From a virus: a stretch of DNA of 64,000 bases. Where the stretch lies: the UHGV virus genome UHGV-0112899. One strand, given 5' to 3'. Within the stretch, counting starts at the first letter, position 1, and each line of letters opens with the position of its first letter. Below, piece by piece: positions 4,093 through 57,132 of this stretch. The position numbers and the translations under genes are program-made. A model generated the notes under the pieces. That model was not told the origin of the DNA. It searched no databases and saw only the letters and a program-made list of their open reading frames with translations.

Positions 4093-4197
4093 GAAAACAC
4101 ACAGTTGCGCCCTGGCATTATCGTGGGGTATATTTCTACGGCACCTTAGAAAAACGGGTGCCGGGATTGGAACCCCGGATAATGCAAAAGGCGACAC

Positions 4198-4220
4198 AGA
4201 CGCCGAAAGCGTCTTTTTTT
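4198..4220 (+). terminator. rho-independent terminator
   Basis: stem agacgc/gcgtct with 5-nt loop followed by T7 run. Confidence 0.6.
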
Positions 4221-4229
4221 GTGTCATGC

Positions 4230-4400
4230 CATCGCACAGCCATGCGTAGCGTTTAGCTCAGAGATCAATGGTAGTGCTGGCTGGGCTGCCGAAAGGCAGG
4301 CCGGTTCCCTTTTGCGCCGGTAGTTCCAACCCAGTCAGTGCTACCGCCATTGAGATTGGAACCTCACGCGGTAGCTCCTTAAATTAGCAAAAGGAGGCTG
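4230..4400 (+). ncRNA. candidate structured leader / antisense-type regulatory RNA (c4-like by position)
   Basis: long-range complementarity (caatggtagtgctgg vs cagtgctaccgccattg) plus ggctgcc hairpin directly upstream of the coupled small ORF and Rha gene. Confidence 0.25.
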
Positions 4401-4405
4401 CCAAT

Positions 4406-4621
4406 ATGGCTACTATCCCTACCCCAACTCATTCTGAATTTATCTGGCGTTTCTATTCCTGCCAAAAACACCTCTATATCTGCGTAATGGCTGCTACCGA
4501 AGCAGAGGCGCGCTCATACCTTCCCGAAGAACCCTGTATTTTTGCTGCTCGCTTCACTCTTGATGCGATGGAGATCCTCAATTACTGGAATCTGCCGATG
4601 AACTGCGTGGAGGTGCACTGA
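4406..4621 (+). CDS. small protein translationally coupled to antirepressor (icd-like by position)
   Basis: AGGAGG RBS; stop overlaps the Rha start (TGATG); paralog at 55481. Confidence 0.5.
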   Translation: MATIPTPTHSEFIWRFYSCQKHLYICVMAATEAEARSYLPEEPCIFAARFTLDAMEILNYWNLPMNCVEVH

Positions 4622-5562
4622 TGAATCTGTCCATCTCTCAAAAAGCGACAATGACCAGCATTGAGATCGCGGAACTGGTGGGAAGTCGTCACTCTGATGT
4701 TAAACGCAGCATCGAAAGACTTGTTGCTAAAGGAGTTATCCAACATACGCCATTGGCTACAGTTGAGAATAATCAATCACTTAGCCCTAATAAATACACA
4801 AAAGCCTATTTCTTCGAAGGCGAACAAGGCAAGCGCGATAGTATTATCGTCGTCGCGCAGCTCTCTCCGGAATTCACCGCCCGGCTGGTGGACCGCTGGC
4901 GCGAACTGGAGAATGTCAGGGGACCGTTAAAATCAAAAGCCGAAATCCTGGCTGAAATGGCGCAAATGCATCTTGAGCATGAACGCAGGATCAACGCCGT
5001 AAATGCCCAGGTAGCCGAGGTATCGGCACAAGTGTCCAGGGTCACCGAAACACTTGAGCAGATCAAGAAAGGCAATATTCCAGAAGGCTACATTGGCTAT
5101 CGCCAGTTGGCGGCAAAATGCGGCCTGACTGAAGCCAAATGCCGCAACCTGGTCAACGCTTACCGGATACCCACTGATACGCATGAGTTTTTAACTCCCG
5201 ACGGTTTGCTTGCGCGACGCTCCATTGTGGCCCTGGCCCCCTTCCGGAAAGCCTTTAAGCAGGTTATGTCGGAGGCAGAACCACGTAACAAACGCTGGTA
5301 TCATCCCAGGATGGGGCTATTTCAGGCCATTCACCATCCTGTGCCTGAAAGTCCAAAGGCAAACCTGTCGTTGCATACCGCCAGAGAGAAGATTAAAACA
5401 GGGTATGCAACCGTATGCCGTCGAGCATCCTGGCCTGAAAGTGTCTGGGTATGGCCCGAAAGAGGCTCACGGAAAAACTGGCGCACCATTCGCGACGGCA
5501 AGATCTGTGCGATTGATTTACAGCCAGAAGATGTAGCAGCGACCGACTGGATTGTTAGTTAA
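4621..5562 (+). CDS. Rha-family phage regulatory protein / antirepressor-like
   Basis: N-terminal SIEIAELVGSRHSDVKRSIERL (Rha-type); paralog at 55705; extra C-terminal domain present here. Confidence 0.65.
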   Translation: MNLSISQKATMTSIEIAELVGSRHSDVKRSIERLVAKGVIQHTPLATVENNQSLSPNKYTKAYFFEGEQGKRDSIIVVAQLSPEFTARLVDRWRELENVRGPLKSKAEILAEMAQMHLEHERRINAVNAQVAEVSAQVSRVTETLEQIKKGNIPEGYIGYRQLAAKCGLTEAKCRNLVNAYRIPTDTHEFLTPDGLLARRSIVALAPFRKAFKQVMSEAEPRNKRWYHPRMGLFQAIHHPVPESPKANLSLHTAREKIKTGYATVCRRASWPESVWVWPERGSRKNWRTIRDGKICAIDLQPEDVAATDWIVS

Positions 5563-5600
5563 TAGATTTGCCCCGGTCATGCCGGGGCTTTAACTACTAA

Positions 5601-55121: not shown

Positions 55122-55221
55122 TGTTAGAAAATTAAATTGATGTTTCTAATCAAGAATGTATGATTTATATCGTCACTAAAAAACAGCATCTGATAAAAAT
55201 TCTGTTGATCTTTCTAATGTT
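55122..55221. promoter_or_regulatory. cluster of three operator-like motifs
   Basis: tgttagaaaattaa (55122-55135), tgtttctaatc (55141-55151), tttctaatg (55211-55219). Confidence 0.45.
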
Positions 55222-55239
55222 CAGGCTTATATTCATGCC

Positions 55240-55470
55240 GTCGTAGCAAATTCTGCGACCGGGTTTAGCAGCCTGAATGTTAGTGCGGACAACCGCAGAT
55301 ATCCGATATTGCGGTATTTTTGTGTCCGTAAAACCGCGTTACGCCCAAATTATGGTGGGGCGTGATGGGGAGGCTTCGGCCTGCTGGTTTCACTAACGCC
55401 AGTCTGCTAACCCCGTCACGTCCTGCCACCTGTTTAGCAGCGGGTAGCAGGTTGTTAAACCTGTTAGTGA
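55240..55470 (+). ncRNA. candidate structured leader / regulatory RNA of second immunity cassette
   Basis: multiple complementary segments (gtttagcagcc / cctgtttagcagcgggtagcagg) upstream of the coupled small ORF. Confidence 0.2.
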
Positions 55471-55480
55471 GGCCGTAACT

Positions 55481-55705
55481 ATGGTTAATGCCAATCCTTG
55501 CTCACGTCCAGAATTCATCTGGCGTTTTCACTCCCTGCAAAAACACTGCGATCACTTCGCAATTGCCGCAACTGAAAAAGAAGCCCGTTCTCTGATCCCT
55601 GATCAGTATGGCGTTCTCACTGGTCGTTTCTCTACTTCCCCACAACCAAACACCAATCCCTGGTATCGCAATATTACCAATCCCGGCATTGCGGAGGCTC
55701 ACTGA
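55481..55705 (+). CDS. small protein coupled to antirepressor (icd-like by position), paralog of 4406-4621
   Basis: shared EFIWRF...AATE.EARS motif with the first copy; TGATG overlap with the Rha gene. Confidence 0.5.
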   Translation: MVNANPCSRPEFIWRFHSLQKHCDHFAIAATEKEARSLIPDQYGVLTGRFSTSPQPNTNPWYRNITNPGIAEAH

Positions 55706-56412
55706 TGGATATCTGCATTCTCGAAAAGCCATCAATGACCAGCATTGAGATCGCGGAGCTGGTGGGAAAACGTCATGACAATGTGAAACGCACTATTGAG
55801 ACATTAGACAAAGGTGGCGTTATTGTTCGTCCTCAAATTGAGGTTTTCGAAAAAATCAATAACTTAGGACTACGACGTAGTGTTGAGGCTTACGTCTTCG
55901 AAGGCGAGCAAGGCAAGCGCGATAGCATTATCGTCGTCGCGCAGCTCTCTCCCGAATTCACCGCCCGGCTGGTGGACCGCTGGCGCGAACTGGAAGAACA
56001 AGTACGCCAGCCGTTGACCGAAATAGAGATGATCGCTGCAATGGCTGCAAATGCAGTTCAGCAGCAAAAGCGGCTTCATGTTGTTGAGTCAAAGGTTAGC
56101 CAGGTTGCTGAAACCGTCGAGCAGATCAAGAAGGGCAACATGCCAGAAGGTTACATTGGCTATCGTCAGTTAGCGGCGAAATGCGGCCTGACTGAAGCCA
56201 AATGCCGCAACCTGGTCAACGCTTACCGGATTCCCACAGATACGCATGAGTTTATGACGCCAGAGGTGGTATTGTCGCGTCGTACTATTGTGGCCTTATC
56301 TCCCTTCATGAATGCCTTTACCCTGATGATGTCGGAGGCTGAACACCGAGGAAAACGCTGGTATCACCCAAGGATGGGACAATTCCAGGTGATCGGTTGG
56401 GGAGGCGAGTGA
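55705..56412 (+). CDS. Rha-family phage regulatory protein / antirepressor-like, paralog of 4621-5562
   Basis: SIEIAELVGKRHDNVKRTIETL; ~105-bp and ~110-bp stretches near-identical to the first copy. Confidence 0.65.
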   Translation: MDICILEKPSMTSIEIAELVGKRHDNVKRTIETLDKGGVIVRPQIEVFEKINNLGLRRSVEAYVFEGEQGKRDSIIVVAQLSPEFTARLVDRWRELEEQVRQPLTEIEMIAAMAANAVQQQKRLHVVESKVSQVAETVEQIKKGNMPEGYIGYRQLAAKCGLTEAKCRNLVNAYRIPTDTHEFMTPEVVLSRRTIVALSPFMNAFTLMMSEAEHRGKRWYHPRMGQFQVIGWGGE

Positions 56413-56609
56413 TGGATATCATGCAGGCGGTAAAAAAAATCAGGGAAGGACAGGCTGAAGTGTGCCGCCGTAAAGCATGGAGTGTTGGTATATGGATCTG
56501 GCCTGATAATTGCTCTACTACCGGATGGTTTTGTATTAATGGATGCCAGATCCGGGAAGTCGATTTATCGACGGCGGATGCAGTCGGTAATGATTGGATC
56601 GTAACTTGA
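56412..56609 (+). CDS. small protein homologous to the C-terminal domain of the 4621-5562 product
   Basis: VCRRKAWSVGIWIWPD...DWIVT vs VCRRASWPESVWVWPE...DWIVS; TGATG coupling; GGAGG RBS. Confidence 0.5.
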   Translation: MDIMQAVKKIREGQAEVCRRKAWSVGIWIWPDNCSTTGWFCINGCQIREVDLSTADAVGNDWIVT

Positions 56610-56617
56610 AGTGTGAT

Positions 56618-56641
56618 GCCCCGGCCTGGCCGGGGCTTTTT
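56618..56641 (+). terminator. rho-independent terminator
   Basis: stem gccccgg/ccggggc followed by T-run. Confidence 0.55.
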
Positions 56642-57132
56642 CATGCCTCATTAGTTGAGGTTGCTGCGTCGCCGACAGGTAACAGAGCTGTATTGCGTGG
56701 TTCGCCAGCAGGCCAGCGATAGCCAGACACTCTTGATGTTGGGAATGCGCGAATATTAACAGCATCCCCCTGGTTCCCACCCAAGACAAGCAGATCGCCA
56801 TTGGCGCGGCGTCCGACAACAAAGCCTACATGCCCACCGCCTGCGCGAGTAAATACAACGATACATCCGTATGCCGGTGTATCTAATTTCTCGCCCCAAT
56901 CCAGATAGGATTTTGCCGACTCAAATCTTGTTGAGCGGATGCCTACACGTTCCAGCATTGCACCGACAAATGCTGCGCACCACGGCGTTTCATCGTCTTT
57001 AATTCCACCGCGCTTAATATCCCGCCAGAACTGGACGATCTCAGGATTGTGTTTCGCTCCTTTTATTTCGGTGACTCCAATATTTTTACGGGCTTCAATA
57101 AGCCAGCGAGGTTCATTATTGATCATAATCAT
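56641..57132 (-). CDS. putative peptidoglycan hydrolase (TIGR02594-like / CHAP-like)
   Basis: 163 aa; GVTEIKGAKHNPEIVQFW...TPWCAAFVG signature with candidate catalytic Cys. Confidence 0.45.
   Translation of the reverse strand: MIMINNEPRWLIEARKNIGVTEIKGAKHNPEIVQFWRDIKRGGIKDDETPWCAAFVGAMLERVGIRSTRFESAKSYLDWGEKLDTPAYGCIVVFTRAGGGHVGFVVGRRANGDLLVLGGNQGDAVNIRAFPTSRVSGYRWPAGEPRNTALLPVGDAATSTNEA

What the first reader, a model, noticed from the sequence alone, without database searches (positions are those of the whole stretch)
55481..56609. Domain fission/fusion between the two antirepressor paralogs
The first Rha protein (313 aa) carries a C-terminal ~65-aa domain (VCRRASWPESVWVWPE...DWIVS). In the second locus the Rha gene stops at 56412 and a separate 65-aa ORF begins on the same nucleotide (TGATG) with the homologous sequence (VCRRKAWSVGIWIWPD...DWIVT). 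The domain is therefore a separable module, and one paralog may have arisen by a stop-creating or stop-removing mutation.
Basis: seen in the sequence. Interest (0 to 1): 0.55.

Follow-up and report, generated by a model that had tools for sequence, protein, structure and literature searches.

The report
Detachable Tad2-like module on phage antirepressors
Two paralogous antirepressor operons of a D6-like phage-plasmid carry the same 65-residue module, fused to the protein in one and made as a separate coupled gene in the other; the split is real and old, and the module appears to be a divergent relative of the phage Tad2 proteins that soak up bacterial immune signals.

Summary
The window is a D6-like P1-type phage-plasmid with two complete C4-RNA/icd/ant (immI-like) operons. 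Ant1 (4621-5562, 313 aa) ends in a 65-aa domain. Ant2 (55705-56412, 235 aa) stops at a TGATG, and a 65-aa ORF (56412-56609) encodes the homologous sequence (37% identity, no gaps, E 1e-16).

It is not a sequencing error. Phage D6 and 15 of 15 IMG/VR type-2 loci have the identical junction. It is also not a single stop mutation: the ORF lies in the -1 frame, has its own GGAGG-N6-ATG, and the linker region does not align.

New here: the module is a divergent DUF2829/Tad2-like domain. Pfam hits are below threshold but colinear, hhalign gives E 8e-5, and the AlphaFold model's best PDB and viral fold matches are Tad2 proteins. The module also occurs fused to an ORF6N-type Ant, as an 81-aa remnant in IncY plasmids, and as the only gene behind a C4 RNA in distant D6-like elements. 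It is therefore autonomous.

Its function (immune-signal sponge, ligand sensor or partner-binding unit) is inferred, not shown. This is a new variant of a known kind, of moderate interest.

The parts
55205..55233 (+). Sigma-70-like promoter candidate of operon 2 (TTGATC-17-TATATT), just upstream of and overlapping the a1/b1 element
   Evidence: Consensus scan. This is a match only; the number found equals the number expected by chance.
55227..55279 (+). a1/b1 target element of C4 antisense RNA (Rfam RF03163)
   Evidence: 53.9 bits against gathering score 46.7.
55348..55433 (+). C4 antisense RNA gene of operon 2 (Rfam RF01695)
   Evidence: 70 bits against gathering score 45.
55481..55705 (+). 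icd-like gene (74 aa). Its TGA shares a base with the ATG of ant2 (TGATG).
   Evidence: NCBIfam NF033153 phage_ICD_like, 40 bits against cut-off 25. phrog_1426.
55705..56412 (+). ant2: Rha-family putative antirepressor, 235 aa, lacking the C-terminal module
   Evidence: Pfam PF09669, 36.8 bits against 29.9. phrog_63 anti-repressor Ant, E 3e-46. 64% identical to Ant1 residues 1-237.
56401..56405 (+). GGAGG Shine-Dalgarno for the 65-aa ORF, 6 nt before its ATG, inside the last codons of ant2
   Evidence: Sequence. Conserved in all 15 IMG/VR type-2 loci and in D6.
56410..56414 (+). TGATG stop/start overlap (ant2 TGA 56410-56412, ORF ATG 56412-56414): a translational-coupling junction with a -1 frame change
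56412..56609 (+). Free-standing 65-aa Tad2-like (divergent DUF2829) module. D6 orf17 homologue, phrog_7385.
56618..56641 (+). Intrinsic terminator of operon 2 (GCCCCGG-CCTGG-CCGGGGC followed by T5)
   Evidence: It aligns with the hairpin after ant1.
4141..4219 (+). isrK-like RNA element upstream of C4 in operon 1, at the position of a1/b1
   Evidence: RF01394, 62.5 bits against 50.
4264..4351 (+). C4 antisense RNA gene of operon 1
   Evidence: 76.7 bits against 45.
4406..4621 (+). icd-like gene (71 aa), joined to ant1 by TGATG
   Evidence: phrog_1426, E 4e-41.
4621..5562 (+). ant1: 313-aa fused protein. It comprises a Rha winged-helix domain (residues ~11-98), a long helix (~106-149), a middle domain (to residue 237), a linker and the Tad2-like domain.
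   Evidence: One search supports only the N-terminal parts at moderate confidence.
5332..5364 (+). Pro-rich linker HHPVPESPKAN (residues 238-248), present only in the fused form
   Evidence: This stretch has no alignable counterpart in locus 2.
5365..5559 (+). Fused copy of the Tad2-like module (residues 249-313)
   Evidence: E 1e-16. phrog_7385, E 3e-12. dN/dS 0.10 among 27 copies.
5570..5591 (+). Terminator-like hairpin after ant1 (GCCCCGG-TCATG-CCGGGGC followed by TTT)
   Evidence: Sequence. Aligned with the operon 2 terminator.
4805..4890 (+). Tract 96-98% identical at nucleotide level to 55889-55975 in ant2, within flanks of 30-60% identity
5060..5165 (+). Second tract, 87-100% identical to 56122-56227 in ant2

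Best explanation
Shown. The window is a D6-like P1-type phage-plasmid with two paralogous immI-type operons. Each has a promoter, an a1/b1 or isrK-like element, a C4 antisense RNA, an icd-like gene, a Rha-type ant gene and a terminator. Both operons end with the same 65-residue self-contained module. In operon 1 the module is tethered to Ant1 by an 11-residue Pro-rich linker. In operon 2 it is a separate gene whose ATG shares a base with the ant2 stop codon and which has its own GGAGG ribosome-binding site, so it should be made from the same mRNA by translational coupling. The icd-to-ant junction is built in the same way. The two states are old, fixed alternatives in the whole D6 lineage. The module has been rearranged repeatedly: N-terminal Rha swapped for ORF6N, a 5' truncation to an 81-aa ORF, and a version that stands alone behind a C4 RNA.

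Inferred from sequence profiles and a fold model. The module is a minimal, divergent member of the DUF2829/Tad2-like superfamily (alpha1, beta1 to beta4, a short helix, beta5). It keeps the family core G...R..W...P...D....DW, including the equivalents of SPO1 Tad2 ligand contacts W25 and D79, but not N26 and W73.

Inferred mechanism. The module is an autonomous small-ligand-binding and oligomerising unit. It is released together with Icd and Ant whenever C4 control is lifted, at infection or induction. My single most likely reading (about 35-40%) is that it sequesters a host nucleotide immune signal, as characterised Tad2 proteins do, with a changed specificity. Whether it acts in cis or in trans with Ant is then secondary.
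For: Anatomy.

Homology of the two copies.

Fixation of both states:
- D6 annotation.
- Plasmid records annotated with the three genes.
- 15 of 15 IMG/VR type-2 loci are split with an identical junction.
- 19 of 25 type-1 loci are fused at 308-313 aa.
- The 65-aa cluster has 165 member sequences, against three singleton truncated variants.

No frameshift fusion is possible: D6-type variants have an in-frame TGA two codons before the ATG.

Tad2-like assignment:
- PF11195 is the best or near-best, full-length colinear hit for all five family members tested, with E 6e-5 for P0124.
- hhalign of the family against 51 bona fide PF11195 proteins gives E 7.8e-5 over 62 columns.
- The hhalign score is 28.9, against mean 10.5, sd 2.3 and maximum 20.2 for 100 column shuffles.
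- The AF2 model has pLDDT 75 and a topology matching the published Tad2 description (paper 10.1101/2023.05.01.538930).
- The top 13 Foldseek PDB hits are all Tad2 chains.
- The top BFVD hits are DUF2829/Tad2-like proteins, with probability up to 1.00 and TM up to 0.64.

Autonomy:
- Standalone homologues P0124 and P0125 sit directly after a1/b1 plus C4 and before a terminator, with no icd or Rha gene.
- ORF6N fusion.
- 81-aa remnant.

Constraint: dN/dS is 0.10 for the fused copy.

Versatility of Tad2 pockets: known members bind 3'cADPR, His-ADPR, cCMP/cUMP and N7-cADPR (paper 10.1101/2025.08.24.671296).
Against: - No family member reaches the Pfam gathering score (16.9, 10.9 and 23.9 bits against 25).
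- The family profile finds no Tad2 chain in PDB by sequence, even at E 10.
- The fold model rests on three sequences. In the full-length Ant1 model the domain has pLDDT below 50.
- Two of the four main gcADPR contacts are not conserved. The alpha2 insertion used for Tad2 dimerisation is absent.
- No characterised sponge is fused to a DNA-binding regulator or placed under antisense-RNA control.
- Among close relatives the split ORF has dN/dS of about 0.6 (8 nonsynonymous and 4 synonymous changes, window against D6), so recent purifying selection on it is not demonstrated.
- No expression or binding data exist.
Confidence: 0.55

Rival explanations
1. The module is the partner-binding or oligomerising part of the antirepressor itself. 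It binds the C1-type repressor or assembles Ant into tetramers, without any small ligand. It works in cis in Ant1 and as a stoichiometric non-covalent subunit of Ant2.
For: - The module is found only in C4-controlled immI-type contexts, or in remnants of them.
- It is attached to two different DNA-binding heads through the same middle region.
- TGATG coupling gives equimolar synthesis.
- In L005/L006 it is the only protein under C4 control, as an antirepressor would be.
- Tad2 proteins are obligate tetramers.
- The fused copy is under strong purifying selection.
Against: - No DUF2829 protein is known to bind a repressor.
- The residues equivalent to Tad2 ligand contacts W25 and D79 are invariant across four deep lineages, which a pure protein-protein role does not predict.
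- The alpha2 dimerisation element is missing.
- Ant2 has kept its full Rha and middle body without the module.
Confidence: 0.25
2. The module is a ligand sensor that makes the antirepressor respond to a nucleotide second messenger, for example a host abortive-infection signal. Immune signalling in the cell would then tip the prophage toward induction.
For: - The architecture of an N-terminal winged-helix DNA-binding domain plus a C-terminal small-molecule-binding fold is that of one-component regulators.
- The Tad2 fold binds many immune nucleotides.
- The pocket residues are partly conserved.
Against: - The split and standalone forms cannot transmit a signal covalently.
- No such regulator has been described.
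- All of this is inference from domain identity.
Confidence: 0.12
3. The 65-aa ORF in locus 2 is a decaying, non-functional remnant left after a fused ant2 was broken. Only the fused copy is functional.
For: Among type-2 loci, dN/dS is about 0.6 for the ORF, against 0.23 for ant2 and 0.04 for icd. Rare truncated variants exist (P0002, P0003, P0126).
Against: - The ORF is intact in 17 of 17 copies examined, and its 90% cluster has 165 members.
- The SD, ATG and TGA junction is conserved.
- There are no indels and 37% identity to the paralogue although synonymous sites are saturated.
- The family-invariant residues are kept in 16 of 17 copies.
- Standalone homologues are maintained in two other lineages.
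Confidence: 0.06
4. The apparent split is a sequencing error or a programmed -1 frameshift, so that locus 2 really makes a fused protein.
For: The ORF is in the -1 frame and the frame is open 69 nt upstream of the ATG in this window.
Against: - The junction is identical in D6, in plasmid records and in 15 IMG/VR loci.
- In the D6-type variant a TGA closes the -1 frame two codons before the ATG.
- There is no X XXY YYZ slippery heptamer in 56343-56410.
Confidence: 0.02

Closest known systems
Tad2 / DUF2829 (PF11195) phage sponge proteins: SPO1 Gp34.65, ModTad2, SptTad2, AcrIIA7/HgmTad2
   Same: - Small size and the same order of secondary-structure elements.
- Shared core motif G...R..W...P...D....DW.
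- Best structural matches in PDB and in BFVD.
- The equivalents of ligand contacts W25 and D79 are invariant.
- Phage-encoded, and found both alone and inside larger proteins.
   Different: - Below Pfam's threshold, and only about 15-20% identical.
- Lacks the alpha2 insertion.
- N26 and W73 are replaced by S/P and by V/I/Y/F.
- Sits in an antisense-RNA-controlled immunity operon, and is fused or coupled to a DNA-binding antirepressor.
- Ligand binding and tetramer formation are untested.
Phage P1 immI operon (c4 antisense RNA, icd, ant1/ant2)
   Same: C4 RNA and its a1/b1 targets, an icd-like first gene and ant downstream, joined by a TGATG-type stop/start overlap. From established knowledge of P1, two Ant polypeptides also come from one region.
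   Different: - Here there are two (in some relatives three) such operons per genome.
- Ant is of the Rha or ORF6N type.
- The second polypeptide is a different domain made from a separate coupled ORF, not an in-frame internal start.
- P1 has no detectable copy of the module: tblastn found only D6 among phage records.
Phage D6 orf82, and orf18 plus orf17 (NC_050154)
   Same: The same genes in the same states (313 aa fused; 235 aa plus 65 aa), about 90% nucleotide identity.
   Different: In the D6 record orf17 is 'hypothetical protein'. The record does not annotate the relation of orf17 to the orf82 C-terminus or to DUF2829. The D6 genome paper could not be read.
Rosetta-stone gene fusion/fission and phage mosaic domain shuffling
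   Same: One domain is found as a separate gene next to its partner in one copy and fused in another. The heads and tails of the Ant proteins are exchanged as cassettes.
   Different: Here both states coexist as paralogues in one genome, under the same kind of RNA control.

Membership tests
DUF2829 / Tad2-like (Pfam PF11195) | Match to the Pfam model at its gathering score (25 bits) | tested here: not met
   65-aa ORF 16.9 bits (E 0.0095), fused copy 10.9 bits, P0001 16.5, P0125 14.0, P0124 23.9 (E 6e-5). All hits are colinear over nearly the full model.
DUF2829 / Tad2-like (Pfam PF11195) | Statistically significant profile-profile similarity to bona fide members | tested here: met
   hhalign A3 against A4 (51 PF11195 proteins): E 7.8e-5, 62 aligned columns, probability 62%. 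Score 28.9 against 100 column shuffles with mean 10.5, sd 2.3 and maximum 20.2.
DUF2829 / Tad2-like (Pfam PF11195) | Fold: N-terminal helix, antiparallel beta1-beta5 sheet, short helix between beta4 and beta5 | tested here: met
DUF2829 / Tad2-like (Pfam PF11195) | Ligand-contact residues of SPO1 Tad2 (W25, N26, W73, D79) | tested here: inconclusive
   By the hhalign alignment, the PDB sequence fragments and manual register, W23 corresponds to W25 and D56 to D79; both are invariant in the family. N26 becomes S or P, and W73 becomes V, I, Y or F. hhalign places W23 one column off the family W, so the register there is uncertain.
DUF2829 / Tad2-like (Pfam PF11195) | Homotetramer that sequesters a nucleotide immune signal and inhibits Thoeris or a related system | not testable with these tools
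   Needs biochemistry and plaque assays. No multimer prediction was available.
P1-type immI operon | C4 antisense RNA gene upstream of the operon | tested here: met
   RF01695 at 4264-4351 (76.7 bits) and at 55348-55433 (70 bits), gathering score 45.
P1-type immI operon | a1/b1 C4 target element upstream of C4 | tested here: met
   RF03163 at 55227-55279 (53.9 bits against 46.7). Locus 1 instead gives an isrK (RF01394) match at 4141-4219.
P1-type immI operon | icd-like first gene joined to ant by a stop/start overlap | tested here: met
   NF033153, 40 bits against 25. TGATG junctions at 4619-4623 and at 55703-55707.
P1-type immI operon | ant product homologous to P1 Ant1/Ant2 and able to inactivate the C1 repressor | not tested
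   The proteins are Rha family (PF09669) and 'Ant' only by position and by PHROG name. No comparison with P1 Ant was run, and activity cannot be tested here.
Rha family regulator (PF09669) | Match above the Pfam gathering score (29.9 bits) | tested here: met
   Ant1 33.6 bits, Ant2 36.8 bits, residues 11-98.
Programmed -1 ribosomal frameshift product | Slippery heptamer in the overlap and a -1 frame open across the junction in all relatives | tested here: not met
   No slippery site in 56343-56410. D6-type loci have a TGA in the -1 frame two codons before the ATG.

The most novel reading that the evidence does not exclude
The Tad2-like module is a sensor of host immune second messengers wired to the antirepressor. 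When an abortive-infection nucleotide signal appears, for example because another phage attacks the lysogen, the module binds it and switches Ant on, so the D6-like prophage induces and escapes. The fused, split and standalone forms would be variants of one signal-eavesdropping switch kept silent by C4 RNA.
Probability: 0.1. Interest if true: 0.85.

Novelty: new variant of a known kind. Interest (0 to 1): 0.5.

Why it matters
D6-like phage-plasmids are common in clinical and livestock E. coli and Salmonella. More than 100 PLSDB records carry these loci.

If the module is a working Tad2-type binder, these elements carry one to three copies of an unrecognised anti-defence or signal-binding domain. 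The copies would sit inside the very operons that decide between lysogeny and lytic growth, under antisense-RNA control.

That would link two fields that are usually treated apart: immunity-region antirepressors and sponge proteins for bacterial immune signals. It would also widen the DUF2829 family beyond what Pfam currently detects.

The coexistence of fused, split, head-swapped and standalone forms gives ready-made natural constructs for testing what the module does on its own and when tethered.

If the module turns out to be only a structural tail of Ant, the case remains an ordinary, well-documented example of phage domain shuffling.

Tried and rejected
- **Sequencing error or assembly artefact at 56410-56412.** Rejected: the junction is identical in D6, in plasmid records and in 15 IMG/VR loci.
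- **Programmed -1 frameshift fusing Ant2 to the module.** Rejected: there is no slippery site, and D6-type variants have a stop in the -1 frame.
- **Single nonsense or stop-loss mutation.** Rejected as sufficient: the frames differ, there is a 16-nt length difference, and the linker does not align.
- **Sequence search of PDB with the family profile.** No Tad2 hit even at E 10. Only spurious weak hits appeared (a hexosaminidase and a Smad).
- **Exhaustive profile search of 1.84 billion representatives.** Only seven hits, so the family is very narrow at sequence level and no deeper alignment could be built. One of the hits, P0127, is a spurious repeat protein.
- **Word-index search with the 65-aa ORF.** Only three proteins.
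- **Full-length Ant1 structure prediction.** Mean pLDDT 55, with the C-terminal third below 50. It was of no use for the domain or for inter-domain contacts.
- **AFDB50 fold search.** The library was not available.
- **Genome-contig scan with the domain pattern.** No relatives found.
- **D6 genome paper (PMC5800970).** Not held, so I cannot say whether its authors commented on orf17 and orf82.
- **NCBIfam.** It has no model for the module.
- **Ancestral state.** The domain tree has four deep, nearly star-like lineages and does not resolve direction. Three of the four are free-standing, which mildly favours fusion in the type-1 branch. The 81-aa IncY ORF, however, shows that fission by 5' truncation of a fused gene also happens.
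Full report
**What the window is.** The two loci match E. coli plasmids of about 90 kb at up to 99.5% identity, and phage D6 at 88-91%. The window is therefore a D6-like, P1-type phage-plasmid. An Rfam scan finds a C4 antisense RNA gene in front of each locus, at 4264-4351 and at 55348-55433. It also finds the a1/b1 target element at 55227-55279 and an isrK-like element at 4141-4219. The small ORF in front of each Rha gene is Icd-like (NCBIfam NF033153; phrog_1426). Both loci are thus complete immI-type operons: C4 RNA, icd, ant, terminator. A second such region in D6-like plasmids is mentioned in PMC6799933.

**The observation.** It holds exactly as described.
- Ant1 (4621-5562) is 313 aa and Ant2 (55705-56412) is 235 aa. 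A 65-aa ORF runs from 56412 to 56609.
- TGA at 56410-56412 shares its A with ATG at 56412-56414.
- The 65-aa ORF aligns with Ant1 residues 249-313 without gaps: 37% identity, E 1e-16.
- Ant2 aligns with Ant1 residues 1-237 at 64% identity.
- The DNA of the two cassettes aligns from upstream of icd to a shared GC-rich terminator hairpin.

**Not an artefact and not a point mutation.**
- Phage D6 has the same pair: orf82 of 313 aa, and orf18 of 235 aa plus orf17 of 65 aa.
- PGAP annotates three genes at locus 2 in plasmid records.
- Of 41 IMG/VR loci recovered with the domain, all 15 full-length type-2 loci have the identical GAGTGATGGA junction. Fourteen have a 235-aa Rha ORF and one has 230 aa.
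- Of the 25 type-1 loci, 19 are fused at 308-313 aa.
- The 65-aa ORF lies in the -1 frame relative to ant2. It is preceded by GGAGG at 56401-56405 with a 6-nt spacer.
- In D6-type variants a TGA closes that frame two codons before the ATG, so no frameshift can fuse the proteins.
- The junction region is 16 nt shorter than in locus 1 and shows only 27-36% nucleotide identity.
- The icd-to-ant junctions use the same arrangement of SD plus TGATG. The split copy therefore looks like a normal translationally coupled gene.
- A promoter-like site lies only upstream of a1/b1, and a strong terminator follows the 65-aa ORF.

**What the module is.** At sequence level the family is tiny.
- A profile search of 1.84 billion representatives finds only the D6-type fused protein, fragments of the split ORF, and two free-standing proteins, P0124 (96 aa) and P0125 (68 aa).
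- PHROGs holds it as phrog_7385, of unknown function. The tail of the large 'anti-repressor Ant' phrog_63 profile also matches it.
- Pfam's PF11195 (Tad2-like, formerly DUF2829) is the best or near-best hit for every member tested. The hits always cover nearly the full model in order, but they stay below the gathering score, with E from 6e-5 for P0124 to 0.7.
- To test this, I collected 120 bona fide PF11195 proteins, aligned 51 of them and ran hhalign against the family alignment. The result was E 7.8e-5 over 62 columns, with probability 62%.
- The hhalign score of 28.9 compares with mean 10.5, sd 2.3 and maximum 20.2 for 100 column-shuffled controls.
- An AlphaFold model of the 65-aa protein (pLDDT 75, built from only three sequences) has a helix, four strands, a short helix and a last strand. 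This is the order described for SPO1 Tad2 in 10.1101/2023.05.01.538930, minus the alpha2 insertion.
- Foldseek against PDB returns Tad2 chains as the top 13 hits, although E is only 0.2-1.
- Foldseek against viral models returns DUF2829/Tad2-like proteins at the top, with probability up to 1.00 and TM up to 0.64. These include 65-66-aa versions and multi-domain proteins.

Each line is weak alone, but they agree. I put the Tad2-like assignment at about 0.8-0.85.

**Ligand-contact residues.** Real Tad2 sequence fragments from PDB let me map the published SPO1 contacts W25, N26, W73 and D79.
- W23 and D56 of the module correspond to W25 and D79. Both are invariant across the four deep lineages.
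- N26 is S or P, and W73 is V, I, Y or F.
- The register around W23 differs by one column between my manual alignment and hhalign.

**The module moves.**
- In E. coli plasmid pF801-4 a third operon (a1/b1, C4, icd) encodes a 332-aa protein. Its first ~100 residues are an ORF6N domain instead of Rha. The rest, including the linker and the module, is nearly the same as Ant1.
- In IncY P1-like plasmids an 81-aa ORF next to a tyrosine recombinase is exactly the last 81 residues of a type-1 Ant. It starts at the Met of ...RMGxFQAI and carries D to N in the DW motif. It is a truncation remnant annotated as 'transcriptional regulator'.
- P0124 and P0125 lie on contigs of 88-90 kb that share structural genes with D6 at about 70-77% identity.
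- In those elements the module is the only ORF between an a1/b1-plus-C4 pair and a terminator, with no icd and no Rha gene. Their C4 region aligns best with that of locus 2.
- The module therefore has a function of its own that is worth keeping under C4 control.

**Selection.**
- The fused copy is under strong purifying selection: dN/dS 0.10 at dS 0.59 over 27 copies.
- The split ORF shows few changes among relatives (dS 0.065) and a ratio of about 0.6. The replacements are concentrated at residues 27, 29, 34, 45 and 57. Its neighbours ant2 and icd give 0.23 and 0.04.
- This could be relaxation or diversifying change, and the sample is too small to tell.
- The ORF is intact in all 17 copies examined, and its 90% cluster has 165 members against three singleton truncated variants.
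- Long-term constraint is clear: it keeps 37% identity with no indel although synonymous sites are saturated.

**Direction of the event.** The domain tree has four deep branches: type 1, type 2, P0124 and P0125. Three of them are free-standing, as are most DUF2829 proteins. This mildly favours a fusion on the type-1 branch. The IncY remnant shows that the opposite process also occurs. I do not consider the direction settled.

**Mechanism.**
- Shown: the anatomy, the fixation of both states and the mobility of the module.
- Inferred from profiles and a model: membership of the Tad2-like superfamily.
- Inferred only from family knowledge: what the module does.
- All characterised Tad2 proteins are tetrameric sponges for nucleotide immune signals, with widely varying specificity. 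The immI operon is expressed when C4 control is absent, that is, early after infection or at induction.
- My most likely single reading (about 35-40%) is an autonomous ligand-sequestering module with altered specificity.
- The main rival (about 25%) is that the module is the partner-binding or oligomerising subunit of the antirepressor. The exclusive immI context and the C4-only standalone copies favour that rival.
- A ligand-sensing antirepressor is a less likely but more interesting third reading.

**Verdict.** The finding is real. As a fission/fusion alone this is ordinary phage mosaicism that is already visible in the D6 annotation. The Tad2-like identity and its tie to C4-controlled antirepressor operons are, as far as I could find, not described. 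I rate it a new variant of a known kind, with interest 0.5.

Noticed in passing
window 4805-4890 vs 55889-55975, and 5060-5165 vs 56122-56227: Two tracts inside the ant paralogues are about 87-100% identical at nucleotide level, while the flanks are 30-60% identical. The same tracts stand out in D6 and in NZ_CP085065. The first tract also matches roi genes of Stx phages at about 78% identity. This suggests gene conversion or a shared recombination-prone mosaic segment. The exchange does not extend into the Tad2-like module.
   Followed up: partly
L049 (NZ_OY757137.1) 1204-2671: Some D6-like plasmids have a third immI-type operon (a1/b1, C4, icd) beside the capsid gene. Its Ant has an ORF6N head in place of Rha but the same middle region, linker and Tad2-like tail as Ant1.
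   Followed up: partly
L005 3752-4320 and L006 3746-4207: In distant D6-like elements of about 90 kb, the a1/b1 and C4 RNA pair is followed directly by a free-standing homologue of the module (96 or 68 aa) and a terminator. There is no icd or ant gene. The site is the same capsid-proximal one as the third operon in L049.
   Followed up: partly
L050 (NZ_CP080067.1, IncY) 2459-2704: An 81-aa ORF annotated 'transcriptional regulator', next to a cre-like tyrosine recombinase, is the last 81 residues of a type-1 Ant, with D to N in the DW motif. It is seen in at least three IncY-type plasmids. It is probably a recombination remnant.
   Followed up: partly
L037, L038, L039, L047: nt 617 of the ant1 homologue (window equivalent about 5237, C-run GGCCCCCTTCC): A +1 insertion in a C5 homopolymer breaks the type-1 gene into a truncated Rha protein of about 208 aa and a 120-aa ORF that still contains the module. 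L037 and L047 have different N-terminal sequences. This could be a recurrent slippage site or a sequencing error in a homopolymer.
   Followed up: partly
window 56432-56439: There is an A8 homopolymer within codons 8-10 of the 65-aa ORF. Rare singleton database variants (P0126, P0003, P0002) are truncated or frameshifted forms of this ORF, one of them starting at this run.
   Followed up: no
window 4141-4219: Upstream of the locus 1 C4 gene Rfam reports isrK (an Hfq-binding sRNA of a Salmonella prophage), where locus 2 has the c4-a1b1 element. The two elements occupy the same position and may be related.
   Followed up: no
window 56412-56609 (residues 27, 29, 34, 45, 57): Replacements among type-2 copies pile up at a few residues. 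Residue 45 is C, L, Y or R, and residue 34 is C, Y or S. This gives dN/dS of about 0.6, whereas icd2 is 0.04. It could reflect diversifying selection or relaxation.
   Followed up: partly
window 56641-57132 (- strand): A TIGR02594-family peptidoglycan hydrolase gene converges on operon 2. The GC-rich hairpin at 56618-56636 lies between the two stop codons and may terminate both.
   Followed up: no
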